NCBI GenBank assembly: GCA_036867785.1
Contig: CP145427.1
Location: 682,001 to 722,821, forward strand
Length of the DNA: 40,821 nt
Direction of reading: 5' to 3'
Origin: Plasmodiophora brassicae
Taxonomy: Eukaryota
This document shows, in pieces, positions 4,604 to 25,448 of this stretch; within the stretch, counting starts at the first letter, position 1, and the number at the start of each line of letters is the position of its first letter. A program made the translations under genes and the position numbers. Under the pieces are notes generated by a model. That model was not told the DNA's origin. It saw nothing but the letters and a program-made list of their open reading frames with translations, and searched no databases.

Positions 4604-5052
4604 CGGCAGCCACTCGGCGGCGACTGGCAGGCGCTGCGTCCGAAGCTGCAGGCGACTACCGTCAACTGCAGACACGCGACTACCGTCAACTGCAGACACG
4701 CGACTACACGGCAGCCACTCGGCGGCGACTGGCAGGCGCTGCGTCCGAAGCTGCAGGCGACTACCGTCAACTGCAGACACGCGACTACCGTCAACTGCAG
4801 ACACGCGACTACACGGCAGCCACTCGGCGGCGACTGGCAGGCGCTGCGTCCGAAGCTGCAGGCGACTACCGTCAACTGCAGACACGCGACTACACGGCAG
4901 CCACTCGGCGGCGACTGGCAGGAGCTGTGTCCGAAGCTGCAGGCGACTACCGTCAACTGCAGACACGCGACTACACGGCAGCCACTCAGCGGCGTCCGAC
5001 AGACGTGTCCGAAGCCGCAGGCGGATACCGTCAGCTGCGAAAGCCCGAGTAC
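4604..5052. repeat. Nested minisatellite (units of 105, 105, 81, 81 bp plus one degenerate unit, with an internal 24-bp subrepeat)
   Basis: CGGCAGCCACTC starts at 4604, 4709, 4814, 4895 and 4976. The subrepeat GCGACTACCGTCAACTGCAGACAC occurs twice in units 1-2 and once in units 3-4. Confidence 0.95.
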
Positions 5053-9765: not shown

Positions 9766-10750
9766 ATGACGGACGCGGGTCGTCGTCCGTTGCTGGACGT
9801 GTGCGAGGCGCGGTGGCCTGAGTTCGCGGCGCACTGCAGGAAGGAGGTGCCGGGGGCGGATTCCTCATCGCGTATTTTCGTGCTGCGCGGCACCCGCTCC
9901 CCCGTTTGCTGACTTGCTCGCAGGCGTTCGTTTCATATTGTCGCTGGCCGGGTTGTGCTCCGCGAACGACCAGACCGCACTGGACGTTCTCGAGCGTCGC
10001 GTTCAGGAGCATGTTGACGTGCTGCAACGGTTGACTGGCGCGTAGCTCGTCGTGCGATTCATGTGGGTTAATGTCTGCGCGTTCGGCAGGCGCCCTGATC
10101 GCGATATCGCCGACGATCTGCGTGTTCTGTCGTCTGCGTGCGATCGGCATTACAAGGCGCTGACGGGCTGTCACCTATCGTTCCCGCACGACGTTGCGGC
10201 AGCGGCACGTCCGCCCTCGTCGGCCGCTCCAGCAGGCGACGATCTGGACCGAATGTACGACGGTCGCATGTCGCCCGCCTACGTACGCCTGCTGAATCCG
10301 TGTATTGTGCCCAGGCGCGAATCTGTACGCAAGCTGGAGTCGGATGTTCACGGTTTGGACCCTGCGCCCGAGATGGACGTGGAACGGTGGCGGGCCGCGC
10401 TGGACGCCTGTCGAAGCGCCTTGGACGACGCTGGCGATTGCATCAGGCAGTTCTGCGATGCCAGCGACAGCATTGTCGCGGCGAAAGCCCCGACCAGCCG
10501 TATCGGCGAGGTCGCGGATGTCGGCACGTCCCAGGCGATGGGCCCCCTGGTGCTCGCGCTGTCTGAAAGCCTGCGATCGCTATCGACCGTCCTGAACACG
10601 TACGCGACGCTCCGGGCCAACCTCCACGATCTGTCTGTGTGCGCGCCAGACAAGTGCCCGACGTCGATGGCAACGATAGACGTGCTGCACTCTGACGTTG
10701 CTGTTCTGCACGATGCCGTTCGACGCCTGCGACGACAGCCAGTGCACTAA
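9766..10750 (+). CDS. Helical/coiled-coil protein, possibly HAUS augmin subunit 7-like, 3 exons
   Basis: ATG 9766, two short in-frame GT-AG introns, last exon equals ORF to TAA 10750. LLDVCEARWP...SLAGLCSAND and MGPLVLALSESLRSLSTVL resemble HAUS7 segments from memory. The gene is well supported; the family call is tentative. Confidence 0.5.
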
Positions 10751-10863
10751 ATTATTGTGGAGCGGGCGGGGGCCGCTGCGACCCGCATCGCTATGTACGT
10801 GGATCCCGCCTGTACGAGTAGGCGACCGCCGAGTACAGTCGCTGACCGCGGCTTGCCACGTCA

Positions 10864-13031
10864 ATGCCCTGGAGTTATCGCCGCGTGCTGGCGATGGTCG
10901 TGGCTGTGCTGTCGGCGACGACGTCGACGTGTTCAGCGGTGACGTACTGCGCAAAGGCGAATGCCTGCGTTTGCGATTGGGTCGTTAACGCGTGCGACGG
11001 AACCGCCATGTGATGTGCCGCCCCCCGCACCGACGCCTCTTACGTCATTGCTGATATACACGCCGACATCGCACCAGATTTATACAAAGCGTGGCAATCG
11101 GTGGCCGGCTCAATGCGTCCTGGTTCGACGTGGCGTCTCCGCAGATGTACCGATCGCTGTCAGTCGGCGCCAGGCCCCCATCCGGTGCGGCCGTGCCACT
11201 GATCTGCGCCTCAGCACCCTGCAGACGTGCCGCATTTGCGGGATAGATGACAATGCCTTCTCGCCGCTTAGCGCGCTGACTTATATGTAACGAACAACGC
11301 GTCATCGACCGTCGTGTCGTCCAACGTCGGGTGGTTCAGTTACCTCGCGTACAACCAGATCTCGTCACCGCTGTCCAGCGCTACCTTTGCCGGCCTAACA
11401 AGGCTGGCACATTTGTACGTCGAAATGGTGCTGCCATGGGAAACCCTTGGCATCCTGATTGCCGTGCTGGTGCCTGCAGAAACCTCGGCGTTAACCAGAT
11501 CGCGTCTATATCGTCGAACGTGTTCACCAACGTCAACCAACTGACGTACCTGTTGGTCAGCGTGGTCGACGGCAGCGGTCTGCACTGACGTTTCTGAGTG
11601 GATTGCCCCTGGTAGGAACCTTGGGACGAATTCCATCACAATGATAACAAACGGGGCGTTCGACTCACTAACCGCGTTGAGAACATTATACCTAGACACC
11701 AACCAGCTGTCGGCCCTGCCCGACCATCTGCTCGATCGCTGCTCGCTGCTGAACGTCCTGTTAGACGTCGAAATATGTCCAACTCGTAAACCGACACCTG
11801 ATCAGCTAACGCGGCCCGTCTGCAGGGCGGTCCATGCTAACCCGTTTCTGATGCGCCTTCCCTACGACCTATTCCGCAATCTGACATCGGCCACAGAAGT
11901 GGGTCAGCCCGGGCAAGTCCATCCGGGATTGTGATTCCATTTCGGCACCACGATGTGCTGATTCGGTGCTTGTAGGGCGTCCCGACCGGCGACACAGATC
12001 GTCTGCTGGCCGGCACCGTCCCCGTCGTACCTTGCATTCCCATATAGCACCAACCTGTGCTCCCCAGGTCCTTGCTCGCACGCGTGTCTGGCCGCATGAT
12101 TTGCTGAACGTGGCGCGTGTCAGATGGCAGTGAGACGTTCGGAACCGCCCAGGCGGGCGGCTATCTATCGTTAACCTGCCCGGCATACAGCGTCATCTCA
12201 GACGTCGTGTTCGCGTCGTTTGGCACCCCGGTGGGCGTGTCCGGTCGGTACCAGCTAGGGAATTGCACGTCAAGCTCCAGCCTCGATGTTGTCAGGGCGT
12301 CCTGCCTGAAGCAGAAGAGATGCCTGCTGACGGCGTCGCTGGCCACGTTCGGATCCTACCTCTGCCCCTCCGCGTCGCCATCTTGGCTGTCGGTTGCTGT
12401 CAATTGCACAGCGAATCGTACAGCCGGAAAACGAACGTCAACTGGGAATCGCATCGTCAGGCGGCCAATCACGCTATCCACACGGCCGTCAAATACGATG
12501 TCGTCAGTACGGATAGGTGCAACGACAGCGTTAACGGTAGCAAACGTGCTATCGGCGACCCCGTCGTCGGTGGGGACGCCAAGGACGACACCGACCTCGT
12601 GGTCGTCGTCGACGGCCGCTTCCGCGCCCTCTCGATACCGTTCGACTACCTGTATGCCACGAAACTTCAGCGGCCAGACACCTGCCATGGACGACTCGTC
12701 GACCAGGGATGGCAGGGCCTCTGGTTCTAATTTCGGGTCGTACATCATACTAACAGTGTGTGTCGTCGCCCTGGGCATCATCGGTGCCGCTGCGCTGTGC
12801 CAATTGTGCCGCTCGAATGCCCAGCCACGTGTGGTCCAGCGAGCAGTGTCATCGACGTTGCCGACCAAGGCCAGGTTGTACACGGCTCCGCGCGATGTCC
12901 CGTTGTCAAGCATCCTAGGTCATCCGGGAACTCAACCGATCCTCTACGGCAACGAGGGCTCGGCACCTTCTTCCAGGGAAGTCCTATCGCGTACCCAACA
13001 CATACATCGGTGGCCAAGGTCCCTCTCATGA
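10864..13031 (+). CDS. LRR + SUEL-type (galactose/rhamnose-binding) lectin single-pass membrane protein, copy 1 (~7 LRRs, 9 exons)
   Basis: Signal peptide MPWSYRRVLAMVVAVLSA and Cys cap CAKANACVCDW. LRR exons 11078-11158, 11215-11286, 11340-11414, 11480-11551, 11616-11759, 11826-~11912. Last exon 12124-13031 has LTCP...ISDVVFASFGTP...C...C...C...CP...LSVAVNC, a Ser/Thr stalk, TM YIILTVCVVALGIIGAAAL and a short tail. Confidence 0.85.
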
Positions 13032-14095
13032 CCTGTTGACGTGCACAACGGCCGTCTGCCCGGCACGCAATTACGAGCAAGCAGGTCATTGAAGACGGAG
13101 GGCGAAACGGTGCCTCGGGCCATGGCCTCATGGACGTCGGCCCACAGCCAGGCCGGACGGCGCGCGCGGGCCTGTCCCTGCTAAAACGGGTGGTACCGCT
13201 GACCATTCCCACGGAATTTCGTTTGACCAGACCCTCGCCCTCGCGCGGCACCGGCAGAGAATCCCTCATCACACGCGGCGCTTTGCTGACCGAGCTCGAC
13301 CGGGACGTTGCTGCCCGCCGTTCGTCAATTCAGAGTCACGCCAGTTCGTCGATTCCGAATCGCCCCGGTTCGTTGACCGTCAACATTTCCGCTTTCGGTA
13401 CCGGAAGCGGAATCGCCTATGCAGGTTCGCCATTCTCAATTAGTCAAACAGCAAAAGGTGAACCAGCGTCGACTGTAAGCTGGACGGGTTCAGGATGGAC
13501 TTACGTACGAAGGGGAGCATTGTTAAGGAGCTGGAGATAATATTGGAATTCAATTACAATAAGTATAGGACCAAGGCGCAACGCAGATCTGATAATCGTC
13601 ACCAAACCTGGCACCGTCGGGCGTGGTTTTAGCATTGACCAGTGGAAACGTCACCGGTTACATCACCGACTTTTATATTCTTACTTGGCGGAATTTCAAC
13701 TCATTGAATATAGTAACGCTGCCGGACGGGTCGAGGTGGTTATATAGGACCGCGTGACCATGGCCCCCTGGACGAACGTGTCCGGCACAATATTACCCTC
13801 GTCTCGATCGTTTGTCCAGAAAAGCGTTTCCGTCAGTGTATTCCTCTCGTCATTCGAGGAGGCTGCGTTGTGGCATATTACAGCTCCCAGCGTCCCATCA
13901 TCGGGCCCCATTTACATCTATGGCCGGCGCCGTGATGTGATTACGAGCCTGATCTGGCGTTATGACGATAACAGACCTGCTGCCATGGATGACTGCACTA
14001 CTTACCCGTTGAGATTCGGTAGTACGGTAAACGATCGTTAATCAGAACCGCCTAATTGGATAGTGTCCCCCCATTGCGTAGGTCGAAAGCGGACA

Positions 14096-16751
14096 ATGAC
14101 CAGGAGCGCTCACTGGCTGGCCGTGGCCGTGGCAATGGCGCTGGTTACAACGTTGACGGAATCCAGTTGCACAGTGCGGAACTCCTGCATTTGCGACTGG
14201 GTTACTTCTTCATGCAGCGGAGACACAATGTGAGTCCAGGCTATATGTCACACAGTTTGTTGTTCATTCCTCCTCACGCATGGTGCATTGGTCAGATCCG
14301 TTGCCAATCAATTCATCGGTGGCAAGATCAACGCGACCTGGTTCGATCTGGACAACGCTCAGAATTACCACACGCTGTCAGTTAATTACATGCCGCATCG
14401 ACTGAATAGTATTAATGCATCGACCCGACGGCAGCACGCTGCAGAACTGTGGCATCACAGGAATCGCCGATAACGCGTTTACGCACCTCGGTTCATTAAC
14501 ATCCCTGTAGCTGACTCAGTTGCAGTTTCCGCTGACGAAATCAAGTGTCTAAGCGCACGTTTTTCGCGCTCAGATGCCTTTTAAATAACCAGATCTCGAC
14601 TCCGCTCTCTACGGCAACTCTTGCCGGTATATCCATGGTGTCATACATGTACGTCGTTTGGAATACGCTGGTCACTGGGTACTGAAGCTGAAGGACACTG
14701 GTCGTCCCAGTGACCTTGGCCGAAATCAAATCACTTCAGTAGCGTCGAACGCATTCAAAGTCTCCAGCCAACTGACTTACCTGTTGCCTCCATTGTTCCG
14801 AGTACTGCCCTCACTTTCTGATTAGAGTCCGAAACTCCCTGTAGGAGCCTTGGATCGAATGCCATCGCGGTGATCGAAGATGGAGCGTTCAACGGCCTGA
14901 GCATGCTGTCCAACTTGTAAGTCTGAAGTTCGAGAATACGTCTTACAGTAAGCACTCGTTGTACTAATGCATATGCATACCTTGCACAGGGACATCAGCA
15001 ACAACTACATTTCCTCGATATCATCGACCGTCTTCGCGAATCTAACGCAACTGATTCACTTGTACCCTAAAGTGCCTACCGATTTCGATGTCAACTGAAG
15101 TCGTATGTGGGCTACAGGAACCTTGCGGTAAATTCCATCACGACGATGCAGGACGGAGCCTACAATGCCTTATCACGGTTGACTTCTTTGTACGCCGAAA
15201 GAGCGTTGTGCCCGGACACGCTGTGATTGTGACATATTGGCCGACCTTTCCAGGGACTTTGGTGTTAATCGCATAACGTCCATATCATCCACCGTCTTTG
15301 CAAATCTCAGCAAACTGAATTTCCTGTGTGTTACTCACATGAACGTACCGCCTCAGAAATCCCACTGAGAACGAATGGCCTTATAGAAATATCGGGACAA
15401 ATGCCGTCACAAAGATTCAAGGCGGAGCGTTTAACTTCCTGACGTCGGTAACAACAATGTACATAGACACCAACCAACTATCATCCCTCCCGGACCAATT
15501 GCTCGATAACTGCATGTCGCTGAGCATCTTGTGAGAGTGTTCACGCCCTGTATACACGAGTTCCTTCTTTTGACCGGTTGCTTCAGGGGCTTCCATGCCA
15601 ATCCGATGTTAATGAGACTCCCCTACGGCATATTCCGCAACCTGACATTGTTGTCCAATATTTGGTTCGCTCGAATGGCGGCTCCAAAACGACATTATAT
15701 ATAACGTGATTCATGGCAGGACGTACAAGCCACCTACTCAGATTGTATGTTGGCCAGCACCTCCGCCATCGCAACTTCTTATACAAGGTTACAGCAGCAA
15801 CCTGTGTGCCCCAGGTAAATTTGCTGATGGCCGTTTATAATATTGTGCATTAGCGCGCTCACGTATGTTACAGATGGCAGTGCGACATATGGAACCGCTG
15901 TTTCGAATGGATATCTAGCGTTATCCTGCCCTGCCAAAAGCTTCATTTCTGGCGTCACGTTCGCGTCGTTTGGGACTCCAGTTGGCGTGTCCGGGCGCTA
16001 CCAATTGGGGACATGCGCGTTTAACAGCACGGTTGCTGCTGTTTCCAGCGCCTGCATCAAACATCAAAGCTGCCTATTAATGGCATCAACGACAGCGTTC
16101 GGACCCAATCAGTGCCCTAGCACACCACAATCGTCCTTATCGCTCTCCGTTGCTGTGAATTGCACCTCGAATGCTACTACCAAAAGAACAGCAGCAGCCC
16201 GGAACACTTTCAACCTCCGTACTGTGCCGTCACACAAATCCTCCGTCAGCTACGGCCAAAGACAGCTGAAGGTCCTTTCAACACAGGGAAGGACATTACT
16301 GACAACGCTGAGAACAACTGTGTCGGCGCCGCGGGCAACTACCCGGCACTCACAGCGAGGGACAGTACTGGCAACGTTGAGGCCAACTGTGCCGACGCCA
16401 CTGTCGACCACCCGGCACTTGACTGGAAGCCGTTCTGACGAGATGCAGAGTGGCACCCAAGACATATCCGGGACCGCAACTGGACGCTCGAACATTTCCG
16501 GCCCGTTTATCCTAATAGCGTGCACAGTGACTGTGAGCATCGTCGGCATTGCGTCTCTCATACAGTTATGGCGGCTCAAGCAGCAACCGGACTCTTCTGG
16601 TGCTGCCCAGCGTCAAGCACCTTCCAGTGTAATGTTGCCAACGTCAGCGAAGTTGTTTTCGTCTCCGGGCCAAGCTCGAGCATCCAACACCGAATTTCCG
16701 TCCGGGACTGCCTCCGTATATTCGTACTTCTATCCTTCGAATCGACGATGA
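14096..16751 (+). CDS. LRR + SUEL-type lectin single-pass membrane protein, copy 2 (~11 LRRs, 13 exons)
   Basis: Signal peptide MTRSAHWLAVAVAMALVTT and cap CTVRNSCICDW. Exons 14096-14229, 14296-14376, 14435-14506, 14574-14648, 14711-14782, 14845-14916, 14990-15061, 15118-15189, 15254-15325, 15387-15530, 15587-15664, 15720-15814, 15874-16751 all join in frame through GT-AG introns. Contains FASFGTP lectin domain, Thr-rich stalk and TM FILIACTVTVSIVGIASLI. Confidence 0.9.
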
Positions 16752-16886
16752 CAAGAACTATCATATCAGGCGAACGGCAGCATGGAGTGCATTACAATTC
16801 GAGATAGACCCCAAGAATGAGGCTGTACTGCCATAAACATTGTTACATAAAACGCCCCAAACTTCGCCATATAATATCATGATGCA

Positions 16887-18445
16887 TTATACCATGCCAT
16901 GGTTAGCGAGCTTGTTTGACAACAATATAGAGTGAACGCTGCTAAATACTTTGGCGACGTTGTCCTTGTCGATGGCTGTTGTGAAATAGAAGTGGACAAC
17001 ACGAGGCTGTAGAGACATTGCCTGAAAAACGCGTTCCGCCGTGTTCTTGTACTGGGCCATCATATACTGACAAGCCGATTCGTACGAACCGTCTCCCTCA
17101 TAGTCCACTGCATAGTGTTTGAATGGCACGACTTCTAGTTTTTCCCTAAACTGGTCTATACGTCGTAATCTCAGGTCCAATCCAAATCCATATTGGCTGC
17201 GCTCATACCGCATTTGTTGAAGAATACGACGATCCTGCAGAATATCGGGAATTAATCCAAGGAGTCAATTGCAAACGTACTCCCGTACCCTGCTTTAACG
17301 AGCAATGGTGCAGAGCACACCTCTTCGAATACCCTGAGCGACTCGGCCATTCGAGGGGATCGGTTATCCTATCACACAGTAGAATTATTATGAATATTCA
17401 TCAACCATAATTCATACCGAACTCCACACACACCTCAGAGCAGAGTTGATTGTACTCCGATAATGCAACCACGTACATAATCGCCGTCGCACTGGAGAAC
17501 TGGCTAATCCATTTTCTTCGTTCGCTAATTGACCTCCGATATCAGGGCCTGGACAACGGTGTAATTACGCCAGACGAACCTTCTTTGACCGCCAACGTCA
17601 ACGATACGGATGACTGTGAGACACTGAATGATTTTCCTGCAATCACAAACCATGCAATACGTCATGATTACCTGAACCATTCATTGTTATACGCTGGTCC
17701 TGGATCCCTGTCGTTCTGTTTCGCAAACGGACAATATCCGTCTCCGTTGGCAGCCATGACGGCTTGGCAATCGTTGCGATCTTATCCAGAAAGTGTTGCG
17801 CATGTGATCCCAAATGGAACTCATTTCGGTACTTGTAAACCTGCGCACATATCTTAGTTTGGAACCACAGCTTACGAGTTCCAAACTACCTGCTGAATGG
17901 CAGGGTCCGTCCAGAGCGTGTAAACGGTGTTCGCAATCTCGTCGGTGACGACGCTTGGTTTGCTACCGAAGAGCCATTGCGAAACGAAGTACTTGGCCTC
18001 TTCCGTGCTGGGGTGCATGGGCAATACCGGCTCCTTGATTTTGCTGACGACCGATACGTCGGACGCGGCGGTCACGAGCCGGCACACGTCGTTGATGATC
18101 ATGGTATGCACCGAATCCCGAAACTGTACCAGCTCTGGCAGTTCGAACTGGACACCGTGCAGCAGGCGGAGCTGCTTGTAAAATGTGCTCTACCGTCAAC
18201 ACGACGCATTATTAACAGGCGTTCAGTCGCACAGCTCCTGCCAGGACACACCTTGCCCGACTCCCCAATTCCTAATGCCAATGTCACTCTGCATGCCATG
18301 GGACTGTACCAGCAATATATTGTATACCAAGGAATAGCGCGACAGGCATCTTCGCTGCCGCCAGGCGTTCGACGCGCAACTGCCTGTCGATTAGGTCGGT
18401 GCATTCGTCAACATCGGGCGCCACCGTCCCTGCGCAGCATGACAT
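16887..18445 (-). CDS. Heterotrimeric G-protein alpha subunit, multi-exon
   Basis: Spliced motifs: G1 LFLGIGESGKSTFYKQ, switch I DIVRLRNRTTGI, G3 IVDVGGQRSERRKW, G4 VFFNKCD, G5 FTTAIDKDNV. ATG 18445 (MSCCAG), TAA 16887. Confidence 0.93.
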
Positions 18446-19098
18446 AGGCGTCCACGTTACCGTAGTTCGTCGTCACTTAGGGTCGCCCTGTTAGGTACCA
18501 GTAGGTACAGAGGTACTCAACACGCCTTAAGTGCACCTAACAGGTGTACGTCCGCAGAGCTGACCATTACCTCATCAATTATATATCGACCAATGTTTGA
18601 ATCAGAGAGCTTTTTTGAATGGGACAACATGGTTCAGGGCCTGCTCTAAGCCCCAGCATGTCTTGGACGAACGCGAAGACGATGATATGGGTGTTAGGCG
18701 ACCGCGACCTCGTTAGCTGTTCAACCGCAACGGCTAGCAGCTCGTCATCAGCATTCTATCTTCCAGAGAAGGCCACAATTTGAAAGCCCCACGTCTCGCT
18801 TGCTGACGAATTACCGGCCGTGAAACGCGATTGATGCCTTTCATTCTCGGGCCGCTTCTGGTTCGTGAGATACGCGGGATGCAGAAGCGCTGCTAGGAGT
18901 ACAGCCTCATTGGAGTAGTGAGCGTATGCCAAAGTTTCTTCTACTGGTCAGAAACGTATAGTAACACTGTCTCCACCGTATACTACAGGACGAGTGACAG
19001 ACTGAAAGTAACAAGGATTTGATAATGCCATGAAATACGAGGTTTACATTGACCTTTTGCCAATCGAGAAGTGGAAGTCAGGGACGCGGTTTACGTTG

Positions 19099-23736: not shown

Positions 23737-25448
23737 ATGATGGTGTACAGGGCGCGCGACCTGCATTGCATTGAGCAGATTGGCCGCGGCACCTACGGCA
23801 CCGTCTGGAAGGCGTTCAATGCCAGTCGACGTCTGGTCGCCGTCAAACGGCTGACCATGGAGAAGGAGACTGAAGGGGTGCGTCCTGTCGTTCCCATTAT
23901 CCTACTGCCTGTGCATTCGTTTGCTAACCGACCGTCTGCCATGCTTAGTTCCCGGTGACGGCGTTACGCGAGGTGAAGATCCTGCAGGCGGTCCGGCACC
24001 CGAACATTATCTGGCTGGAGTCGTGCGATGCGTCCGTCGATGCACACCTGTATCGCACAGGGTCTTCCATTGACATGGTCTTTCCGTACCATGATCACGA
24101 CCTGGCCGGCCTCATCGAGAACGACATCGTGGAGATATCCCCCGCCATCGCCAAGTACTACCTGCAGGAGATCCTCAAGGGTCTCGACTACCTGCACTCC
24201 AACCATGTCATGCATCGGGACATGAAGTGTAAGATTGAACCCGCTGCGTTCATTCGTCACCGCGGCTCTAACAGCAACTGGTGCACAGCGTCGAACATCC
24301 TCATCAACAACGACGGGCGCGTTCGTATTGCGGATTTCGGCCTGGCGCGCTTCACCGACATGCGATGCCCGGACTACACGAACCGTGTGGTGACAATGTG
24401 GTACCGCCCACCTGAACTCTTCATGGGCGTCGAGCAGTACGACTGCAGTGTGGACATGTGGTCTGTCGGGTGCATCATGGCCGAGCTGGTCACCGGCGCG
24501 CACCCGTTCCAGGGCACGACCGACCTGGAGACGCTCGACCGCATCTTCCGCCTCTGCGGGACGCCAACGCGCGACACCTGGCCCGGGTTCGAACGCACAC
24601 CCTGGTACGAGCACATGCGGCCGCGCAAGCCCCGCGCCCGACAGTTCGACACGGCGTTCGCCGACCTGCCCGAGGACGCTCGCGACCTGCTGGATGGGCT
24701 CCTGTGCCTGGATCCGGCTCGGCGCCTGACCGCTCGCCAGGCACTGCAACACGCGTTCTTCCGCACCGAGCCGCTGCCGATCACGGGCGACCAGCACCCG
24801 CAGTTCCCACAATCGCACGAGCTCAAGTGCCGCGCCCTGCGAGCACATCGACGTGCCGAGGAGAAGCAGCAACAGGCCATTGCTGCGGCCACCGCATCGA
24901 AGCCGCCGACGAACCCGAGAGCGTCGCCGCGTCCCGCTAAACGGCAACGGTCGCCGTCACCGAAGCCGACTCGATCGCGTCGATCACCGTCCCCATCAGC
25001 ATCTCCTCGAAAATCCCGGAAGCGGCATCGGTCCTCGTCGAGGCGTCGATCCGAATCCGGCGCCCGGGACAGGTCCACGGCTCGGCGTGGATCCGGGTCC
25101 CGAGACAGATCCACGACACGTCGCTCCACGGCACGTCGCCGATCCCGATCCCGAGACAGATCCGCGACACGTCGCCGGTCCCGATCCCGAGACAGATCCA
25201 CGACACGTCGCCGATCCCGATCACGAGACAGATCCACCACACGTCGACGATCCCGCTCCCGACGCCGATCGCAATCGACCGAACGGTCCCGGGTTCGTCG
25301 GTCGCGATCCCGATCTCGTCGCCGATCGGCGTCGTCGGGGCGGTCCAGTCGGCGGCACTACGGCGCCAGCCGGGGCCATGACCGGCACGATTCCCGTTCC
25401 CATGGGCATGGCAGATCACAGAATAATACACATGCAACCCGTCACTGA
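23737..25448 (+). CDS. Cyclin-dependent kinase of CDK9/CDK12/CDKC type with C-terminal RS-rich tail, 3 exons
   Basis: IGRGTYGTV, VAVK, EG|FPVTALREVKIL, HRDMK|.SNILI, ADFGLAR and YTNRVVTMWYRPPEL, followed by an Arg/Ser-rich tail. Confidence 0.92.
25132..25262 (+). repeat. 36-bp coding tandem repeat (~3.5 copies; RRRSRSRDRS[AT]T) in the CDK tail
   Basis: CACGTCG unit starts at 25132, 25168, 25204 and 25240, with degenerate copies upstream. Confidence 0.9.

What the first reader, a model, noticed from the sequence alone, without database searches (positions are those of the whole stretch)
10864..16751. Tandem LRR-lectin surface receptors built from one-LRR-per-exon cassettes with variable repeat number
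Seen: two paralogues share the layout signal peptide - Cys cap - LRRs - SUEL lectin - Ser/Thr stalk - TM - short tail. Nearly every LRR is its own 72-bp (or 75/78/81/144-bp) exon bounded by phase-2 introns, so any exon can be skipped, duplicated or swapped without a frameshift. Copy 2 has four more 72-bp exons than copy 1. They alternate between an 'ISS.VF.N' type and a 'DGA[FY]' type, as if a two-exon module had been triplicated. Established: symmetric single-repeat exons underlie exon shuffling in brown-algal ROCO-LRR genes. Inference: this may be a diversifying recognition or adhesion receptor family ~25 kb from a telomere, combining protein-binding and glycan-binding modules. The genes are mostly invisible in the six-frame ORF track. 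I do not know this architecture as a described system.
Basis: partly seen in the sequence, partly recalled or inferred. Interest (0 to 1): 0.75.

Follow-up and report, generated by a model that had tools for sequence, protein, structure and literature searches.

The report
Clubroot parasite LRR-lectin membrane protein genes
Two neighbouring, intact, intron-rich genes of the clubroot parasite are predicted to encode cell-surface proteins that join leucine-rich repeats to a lectin-type domain; their one-repeat-per-exon layout is real but common, the extra repeats of the second gene come from an old duplication, and both lack an inner-tail motif that their relatives share, so they are likely fixed adhesion or recognition proteins rather than a system that keeps generating new receptors.

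Summary
Gene 1 (9 exons, 558 aa) and gene 2 (13 exons, 638 aa) of Plasmodiophora brassicae are open frames: signal peptide, Cys cap, LRRs, SUEL domain, basic Ser/Thr stalk, TM helix, tail. All LRR introns are phase 2, and gene 2 carries a triplicated two-repeat module.

The 'diversifying cassette' reading is not supported. The layout is in print for rice, brown algae and Tetrahymena and occurs at about 12 other LRR loci here (the scan also noted it elsewhere in this genome, e1-7153119). The triplication is old. All 44 repeats of six paralogues cluster by position. No exon skip appears among 6 RNA splice joints (shallow data). Face dN/dS is below 1.

What is new: I found LRR+SUEL+TM only in this six-gene family. 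Another public assembly carries a clean hybrid of two paralogues that switches inside the lectin exon. The four paralogues share a C-terminal tail motif with at least 13 other predicted membrane proteins with unrelated ectodomains; the two window genes lack it, and lack the rhamnose-binding residues. Likely fixed adhesion or decoy members of an undescribed receptor superfamily.

The parts
10864..13031 (+). Gene 1, 9 exons, 558 aa; public models PBRA_009095 (fused to the upstream gene) and SPR01723.1 end in a wrong frame without the TM helix
   Evidence: introns 2, 7 and 8 seen spliced in an RNA-like run
10864..11009 (+). Gene 1 exon 1: signal-peptide-like N-terminus and four-Cys cap
11078..11912 (+). 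Gene 1 LRR exons 2-7 (11078-11158, 11215-11286, 11340-11414, 11480-11551, 11616-11759, 11826-11912), all phase 2; seven repeat units
11552..11615 (+). Gene 1 intron 5; the only spliced contig uses a donor 4 nt downstream (11556), which leads to an early stop
11913..11975 (+). Gene 1 intron 7, a 63-bp GC-AG intron
   Evidence: predicted, joint, same junction in public protein P0002
11976..12067 (+). Gene 1 exon 8: family-specific C-terminal Cys cap
12124..13031 (+). Gene 1 last exon: SUEL domain, basic Ser/Thr stalk (112 aa, 37% S+T, 14 K+R vs 3 D+E), TM helix, 74-aa tail without the family motif
   Evidence: 12121-12530 is continuous in an RNA contig
13190..13257 (+). 68-bp intron in the 3' untranslated region of gene 1
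   Evidence: joint
14096..16751 (+). Gene 2, 13 exons, 638 aa; public model PBRA_009094 holds only residues 296-638
   Evidence: intron 1 seen spliced
14296..15664 (+). Gene 2 LRR exons 2-11, all phase 2; eleven repeat units
14711..15458 (+). Triplicated A/B module of gene 2: A = 14711-14782, 14990-15061, 15254-15325; B = 14845-14916, 15118-15189 and the first 72 bp of the 144-bp exon at 15387
15720..15814 (+). Gene 2 exon 12: C-terminal Cys cap
15874..16751 (+). Gene 2 last exon: SUEL domain, basic Ser/Thr stalk (114 aa, 34% S+T, 16 K+R vs 3 D+E, with a 69-bp two-copy repeat at 16282-16419), TM helix, 60-aa tail without the family motif

Best explanation
Two intact paralogous genes, both with spliced RNA evidence, are predicted to encode single-pass surface proteins that likely hold a leucine-rich-repeat binding surface away from the membrane on a SUEL domain and a basic Ser/Thr stalk, and that likely act as fixed adhesion, co-receptor or decoy proteins because they lack the cytoplasmic motif of their relatives. 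Shown: gene structure, domains, six-gene family, old triplication of a two-repeat module in gene 2, positional conservation of repeats, loss of the rhamnose-binding residues and of the tail motif. Inferred: the LRR concave face binds a protein ligand; the SUEL domain of these two copies is a spacer or protein-contact module rather than a rhamnose lectin; the stalk is extended and O-glycosylated or binds polyanions; the LRR-SUEL fusion arose when an LRR exon array was joined through the phase-1 intron to a SUEL-stalk-TM-tail last exon of the kind other genes in this genome carry. Variation arises slowly in the germ line, by rare in-frame exon duplication and by unequal crossover or conversion between tandem paralogues centred on the lectin exon, not by routine exon skipping.
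For: Open frames and TM helices in 6 of 6 family members; public proteins reproduce my junctions (P0002 identical to gene 1 over 260 aa, P0001 is the C-terminal 343 aa of gene 2, P0014 contains my whole C17c model). Five of six genes have 9 exons. 44 of 44 repeat units have their nearest neighbour in the same positional class, null mean 5.5. Repeats within gene 2 are no closer to each other (0.53-0.65) than to gene 1 (0.62-0.68); 3 of 28 intron pairs reach z 2.3-2.9 and they do not follow the module pattern. Gene 1 vs gene 2 ectodomain dN 0.33, dS 1.24; face differences 12 of 25 vs 33 of 71 elsewhere, p = 1. DNA run X7 matches the whole stretch without a difference (it may be the source). None of the six CSL3 primary-site residues (PMC3269628 passages) is kept in gene 1 or 2, against 4 of 6 in C17a. 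The closest solved structure is the rice beta-galactosidase C-terminal domain 5iaz (E 1e-18), for which no sugar binding was seen (cited in PMC8121149). Tail-motif HMM scores 61-65 bits in paralogue proteins, at most 8.6 anywhere in the window. Hybrid record P0081: 130 C17a-type sites, then 100 C17b-type sites, none mixed; C17a/C17b dS 0.22 in SUEL vs 1.1 or more in the LRRs.
Against: No ligand, localisation or protein evidence. RNA depth over the coding exons is only about 3-10; 4 of 20 predicted introns were seen spliced at the predicted sites, one only at an unproductive donor, several were retained, and exons 3-11 of gene 2 had no RNA cover in 3 of 3 RNA-like runs, so rare or stage-specific skipping is untested. 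The concave face does change faster than the rest in some pairs (C17a vs C11 12 of 35 vs 15 of 103, p = 0.024; among gene 2's own module copies 23 of 30 vs 46 of 84, p = 0.049; six tests, uncorrected). No isolate panel was examined. The spliced form of gene 1 intron 2 lies on a contig that runs in from the upstream gene, so it may come from read-through RNA.
Confidence: 0.55

Rival explanations
1. A diversifying receptor system in which LRR exons are skipped, duplicated or swapped at high rate, as proposed for brown-algal ROCO genes.
For: Every contiguous skip is in frame; gene 2 did triplicate a module; face residues change faster in some pairs; a hybrid paralogue exists in other assemblies; a pangenome preprint reports accessory variation among LRR effectors (10.64898/2026.10.14.759018, passages).
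Against: Frame compatibility follows from the split codon being hydrophobic (second base T at the LRR junctions) and is shared with about 12 other loci; positional clustering 44 of 44; highest identity between two repeats of one gene 0.65; no skip joint among 6; dN/dS below 1; the one recombination event found lies in the lectin exon, not among LRR exons; introns of 53-73 bp fit intron definition, which is associated with retention rather than skipping (PMC6142364 passages; that paper also names exceptions).
Confidence: 0.1
2. The two window genes are decaying, weakly expressed duplicates under relaxed selection; the working receptors are the C17 and C11 paralogues that keep the tail motif and more of the sugar site.
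For: Loss of tail motif and sugar-binding residues; low RNA depth, retained introns and an unproductive donor in gene 1; low GC3 in gene 2 (0.59 vs 0.67-0.73).
Against: Both frames are open over 20 introns despite dS 1.24, with dN/dS about 0.27; Cys caps, SUEL cysteines, hydrophobic N-termini and TM helices are kept.
Confidence: 0.15
3. True dual-ligand signalling receptors: the SUEL domain binds a host wall glycan through a non-canonical site, the LRRs bind a protein, and the tail signals by its own means.
For: The SUEL fold with six cysteines is kept; Gal-lectin domains are reported enriched in plasmodiophorids (PMC4471660 passage); a bipartite LRR + F-lectin receptor kinase is described in Chlorella (PMC12757656 passages).
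Against: No kinase or other domain in the tails; the tails of gene 1 and 2 show little likeness to each other or to the paralogues; canonical sugar contacts are missing.
Confidence: 0.2

Closest known systems
Brown-algal ROCO LRR exons (Teng et al. 2024, PMC11378527; passages read)
   Same: 72-bp phase-2 exons, one LRR each, variable number
   Different: ROCO proteins are LRR-ROC-COR GTPases with reported shuffling, splice variants and positively selected face sites; here single-pass proteins, position-specific repeats, no skip seen, dN/dS below 1
Rice LRR receptor kinases (Sun and Wang 2011, PMC3050792; passages read)
   Same: Phase-2 introns split a conserved Leu of the strand motif; exons of 72, 75, 78, 81 and 144 bp, the same size set as here; membrane receptors
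   Different: They carry a kinase; no SUEL domain or basic stalk is mentioned in the passages read
Tetrahymena 90-bp LRR exon arrays (PMC6564038; passages read)
   Same: Phase-2 one-repeat exons with variable number among paralogues
   Different: Tens of thousands of exons scrambled between genes; here six genes with position-faithful exons
Plant beta-galactosidase C-terminal SUEL domain (PDB 5iaz) and animal rhamnose-binding lectins CSL3, 5h4s, latrophilin RBL
   Same: SUEL domain; best match is the plant type (E 1e-18)
   Different: The window copies lack the Glu, Asp and Lys of the primary sugar site and the first disulfide; they are fused to LRRs and a TM helix
MEGF8/ATRN family with the MASRPFA tail motif (bioRxiv 10.1101/2020.05.25.113944; passages read)
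   Same: Works-like analogy only: single-pass proteins united by a short conserved cytoplasmic motif that recruits a shared partner
   Different: The motif sequence is unrelated and sits at the C-terminus; no partner is known; the two window genes lack it
EVA-1/EVA1C SUEL-domain single-pass co-receptors (recalled; named in scan note e1-7787129)
   Same: SUEL domain outside, one TM helix, short tail
   Different: No LRR in the same chain (recalled); animal-specific; not tested here

Membership tests
Single-pass LRR receptor-like protein | Extracellular LRRs with Cys caps | tested here: met
   Pfam LRR_8 on exons and public proteins; four-Cys N-cap
Single-pass LRR receptor-like protein | Signal peptide and one TM helix, no catalytic tail | tested here: met
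   hydropathy only; no tail domain; no SignalP or TM predictor was available
Single-pass LRR receptor-like protein | Surface localisation and ligand binding | not testable with these tools
   no experiment
SUEL / rhamnose-binding lectin | SUEL domain (PF02140) above cut-off | tested here: met
   47.7 and 45.5 bits, cut-off 31.4
SUEL / rhamnose-binding lectin | YGR and DPCxGTYKYL motifs; Glu7, Tyr27, Asn74, Asp79, Gly83, Lys86 of CSL3 | tested here: not met
   0 of 6 kept in gene 1 and gene 2 (Tyr replaced by Phe, Asp by Tyr or Asn); 4 of 6 in C17a; read from alignments with residues from PMC3269628
SUEL / rhamnose-binding lectin | Four disulfides | tested here: not met
   six of eight cysteines; the Cys1-Cys3 pair is absent
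ROCO-type exon-shuffling LRR system | One LRR per 72-bp phase-2 exon | tested here: met
ROCO-type exon-shuffling LRR system | Repeats shuffled within and between genes | tested here: not met
   44 of 44 nearest neighbours in the same positional class
ROCO-type exon-shuffling LRR system | Exon-skipping isoforms | tested here: inconclusive
   0 of 6 splice joints skip an exon, but depth is low and gene 2 LRR exons were uncovered
ROCO-type exon-shuffling LRR system | Positive selection on the concave face | tested here: inconclusive
   face dN over gene dS about 0.3 (gene 1/gene 2) and 0.7 (C17a/C11); face faster than the rest in some pairs; no site model run
ROCO-type exon-shuffling LRR system | ROC-COR domain | tested here: not met
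   no such Pfam match
P. brassicae tail-motif membrane proteins (defined here) | C-terminal motif RRxxARDKF(N/G/D)QGAxT followed by a Ser/Thr/acidic end | tested here: not met
   absent from both window genes; present in their four paralogues

The most novel reading that the evidence does not exclude
P. brassicae has an undescribed superfamily of at least 17 single-pass receptors that plug unrelated ectodomains (LRR+SUEL, LRR alone, LamG+SUEL, NHL propeller, GH18, glucoamylase-like) onto a basic stalk and one shared cytoplasmic docking motif, all feeding one intracellular partner; its LRR-SUEL branch makes new alleles by crossover in the lectin exon, and the two window genes are motif-less decoy or adhesion members.
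Probability: 0.3. Interest if true: 0.7.

Novelty: new variant of a known kind. Interest (0 to 1): 0.42.

Why it matters
How the clubroot parasite attaches to and senses its host is poorly known, and the two secretome studies I read remove proteins with TM helices before analysis, while public models of both window genes are truncated or fused. A correct six-gene LRR+SUEL family gives testable candidates for surface recognition. The shared tail motif offers a single bait to find a common signalling or trafficking partner. The exon layout itself is not news.

Tried and rejected
Run search: no holder is on record as RNA; six guessed RNA runs held part of the stretch. The 14 best DNA holders all show share 1.00, but they are ranked by share and marked as possible sources, so they say nothing on other isolates. 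Lack of RNA cover on gene 2 exons 3-11 is not taken as silence. The joint 12343/12589 was dropped: 20-nt side, present in the DNA run, from another locus. An alternative phase-0 model of gene 1 intron 7 was rejected by the RNA joint. A gene-prediction artefact for the hybrid P0081/P0013 was considered: no in-register splice signal lies in the switch region as printed for G000 and two assemblies give it, but their DNA was not seen. Protein search with the lectin region alone among long proteins found nothing (0 of 485 candidates). ESM Atlas gave only generic LRR clusters, best score 0.89 and 0.87, best TM 0.44. Thirteen other SUEL-bearing 10-kb stretches showed no LRR profile hit (0 of 13). Literature: PBRA_009094/009095, PBRA_008417/008418 and the tail motif in 0 papers; searches listed no paper on an LRR+SUEL membrane protein (titles and abstract starts seen). 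bioRxiv supplements are closed and eLife Supplementary file 9 (LRR list) was not opened. A telomere link was rejected. No complex prediction was run.
Full report
Setting. The window is G000:C19:682001-722821 of a 25.3-Mb, 20-contig genome and ends in TTTTAGGG repeats. Database labels on proteins identical to parts of both genes name Plasmodiophora brassicae.

Observation. Gene 1 (10864-13031) has 9 exons and 558 codons, gene 2 (14096-16751) 13 exons and 638 codons, both without internal stops. 18 of the 20 introns are phase 2, the last of each gene phase 1; introns are 53-73 bp. Pfam finds SUEL in both last exons and LRR_8 in both 144-bp exons. Each protein has a hydrophobic N-terminus, a four-Cys cap, a stalk of 112-114 aa with 34-37% Ser/Thr and a strong excess of Lys/Arg, one TM helix and a tail of 60-74 aa. 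The four extra exons of gene 2 fit a triplicated two-repeat module: identity within type 0.53-0.68, between types 0.35-0.49.

Transcripts. I laid 3 guessed RNA runs and 1 DNA run of the 24 listed. Of 7 joints one is spurious (also in DNA, 20-nt side). Of the other 6, all from run X15, four match predicted introns (gene 1 introns 2, 7, 8; gene 2 intron 1), including a GC-AG intron that I had predicted; one is a 3' UTR intron; one uses a donor 4 nt downstream in gene 1 intron 5, on a contig that also retains intron 4, and leads to an early stop. Run X17 contigs are unspliced where they cover introns. No joint skips an exon, but depth over the coding exons is about 3-10, exons 3-11 of gene 2 are uncovered and the tool withheld 14 pieces, so skipping is only weakly tested. 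The DNA run matches the whole stretch without a difference and may be its source. Public models are wrong for both genes: PBRA_009095 fuses gene 1 to its upstream neighbour and, like SPR01723.1, leaves the frame inside the SUEL domain, a place that an RNA contig crosses unspliced; PBRA_009094 starts at residue 296.

Family. Searches with the SUEL exon, the 144-bp exon and the cap exon each return the same four paralogues at the top: three in tandem on C17 and one on C11. All four give open 9-exon models of 601-617 aa; a public protein contains my C17c model whole. Repeat number is 7 in gene 1, 8 in the four paralogues and 11 in gene 2 (counting exon 2). None of 13 other SUEL-bearing stretches holds an LRR hit.

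Is it shuffling? Of 44 repeat units, 44 have their nearest neighbour in the same positional class (null mean 5.5, maximum 16); the closest two units within one gene are 65% identical. The module copies in gene 2 are as far from each other as from gene 1, and their introns show no patterned similarity, so the triplication is old. Between genes 1 and 2 ectodomain dS is 1.24 and dN 0.33; face dN is 0.36 and face residues differ no more than others (12 of 25 vs 33 of 71). In the closest pair, C17a/C11, the face changes faster (12 of 35 vs 15 of 103, p = 0.024; dN 0.23 vs 0.10) but stays below the gene's dS of 0.34; among gene 2's own module copies the face also differs more (p = 0.049). These are 3 of 6 uncorrected tests below 0.05 and are compatible with relaxed or mildly diversifying change. 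That every skip is in frame (76 of 76) follows from the split codon being hydrophobic. The layout is common here: 14 of 30 other LRR loci (12 distinct places) hold two or more such exons, against 0-1 calls per shuffle. It is in print for rice LRR kinases with the same size set (PMC3050792), brown-algal ROCO genes (PMC11378527) and Tetrahymena (PMC6564038); I read passages of each.

Where variation does arise. Two public records from assemblies with other contig lengths (CEP01105.1, SPR01565.1) are a clean hybrid: 130 diagnostic sites match C17a, then 100 match C17b, with the switch in a 15-codon window of the SUEL exon. C17a and C17b are nearly homogenised there (SUEL dS 0.22, an 80-nt identical run) while their LRRs are saturated. 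The simplest reading is unequal crossover that reduced the cluster from three genes to two; I did not see that DNA, so an assembly collapse is not fully excluded. C17c differs at 8 of 636 residues between assemblies, whereas the correctly modelled parts of genes 1 and 2 in public records are identical to the window. A pangenome preprint names a chromosome 17 of about 747 kb as a variation hotspot (passages); whether its numbering and orientation match C17 I did not check.

The lectin. The best solved match is the rice beta-galactosidase C-terminal domain (5iaz), for which no sugar binding was observed (Rimlumduan 2016, seen only as cited in PMC8121149). Against the six primary-site residues of CSL3 (PMC3269628), genes 1 and 2 keep none, C17a four (my reading of the alignments). 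Glycan binding is therefore plausible for some paralogues and doubtful for the window pair.

The tail. The four paralogues end in a conserved motif. A search of the genome with one such tail gives 16 places, plus one on C16 from an earlier search; in 14 of the 16 a TM helix lies 76-169 residues before the end of the same frame. Ectodomains include LamG+SUEL, NHL repeats, GH18, a glucoamylase-like domain and LRR arrays without SUEL. The C16 gene shares the cap and exon-2 pattern with the LRR-SUEL genes, which suggests that the fusion arose by joining an LRR array to a SUEL-stalk-TM-tail last exon (inference). Genes 1 and 2 lack the motif in any frame. A shared docking motif on diverse single-pass proteins has a precedent in MEGF8/ATRN (passages); the analogy is functional only. 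The motif is in 0 papers of the library.

Novelty of the architecture. Among 78 SUEL hits with precomputed domains, the 3 with LRR domains are this family (only 8000 candidates scored). A profile of two repeats, cap and SUEL against 1.84 billion representatives matched 4109 proteins; among the best 150 only four family records span the junction, and of 227 proteins held, the 6 with both domains are family records. The lists are dominated by multi-repeat proteins, so a distant LRR+SUEL protein could be missed. A Chlorella kinase with LRR and F-type lectin is described (PMC12757656). Paper searches listed no description of this family.

Position. The genes lie 24-30 kb from the telomere, between what look like ordinary genes (helicase- and thiolase-like frames upstream by my reading; a G-alpha gene downstream). 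The paralogues lie 137 kb or more from a contig end. I see no telomere link.

Verdict. Real genes, known exon layout, probably undescribed domain combination. Most likely fixed adhesion, co-receptor or decoy proteins (0.55); dual-ligand signalling receptor 0.2; decaying duplicates 0.15; active cassette diversification 0.1. Interest 0.42, carried by the architecture, the hybrid allele and the tail-motif superfamily rather than by the exons.

Noticed in passing
L088, L090, L093, L095, L091, L108-L123 (G000 C7, C11, C12, C13, C16, C17, C19): At least 17 predicted single-pass proteins with unrelated ectodomains share a C-terminal cytoplasmic motif RRxxARDKF(N/G/D)QGAxT plus a Ser/Thr/acidic end; not found in the paper library.
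   Followed up: partly
L032:2041-8858 (G000:C17 493-501 kb); P0013, P0081: Public records from other assemblies encode a C17a/C17b hybrid with the switch in the SUEL exon; C17a and C17b share a converted tract there.
   Followed up: partly
L034:947-6210 (G000:C11): A 5264-bp LTR retrotransposon with identical 176-bp LTRs, a 4-bp target duplication, RT, RNase H, integrase and chromo domains sits in intron 2 of the C11 paralogue: a very recent insertion.
   Followed up: partly
window 9770-11440: The deeply covered RNA contig of the upstream 270-aa gene (P0005; the part tested has no Pfam match) runs on into gene 1 in two runs, in one with gene 1 intron 1 kept and intron 2 removed; this probably explains the fused public model.
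   Followed up: partly
window 13190-13257: Spliced 68-bp intron 158 nt after the stop of gene 1.
   Followed up: no
window 13001-19000: G+C drops to 48-55% against 60-69% in the flanks; gene 2 has GC3 0.59 against 0.67-0.73 in the other five.
   Followed up: no
window 16887-18447, - strand: A G-protein alpha subunit gene directly downstream of gene 2, converging on it.
   Followed up: partly
L076, L077 (G000:C7), L118 (G000:C19 113-115 kb): Clusters of LamG + SUEL + stalk + TM genes, three in tandem on C7.
   Followed up: partly
L114, L116 (G000:C11): Two GH18 chitinase-like domains on a stalk and TM helix with the shared tail motif; catalytic residues not checked.
   Followed up: no
window 4604-5038 and 25074-25262: Tandem repeats of 81/105 bp and of 36/51 bp; the second encodes an RS-rich tail of a CDK-like frame.
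   Followed up: no
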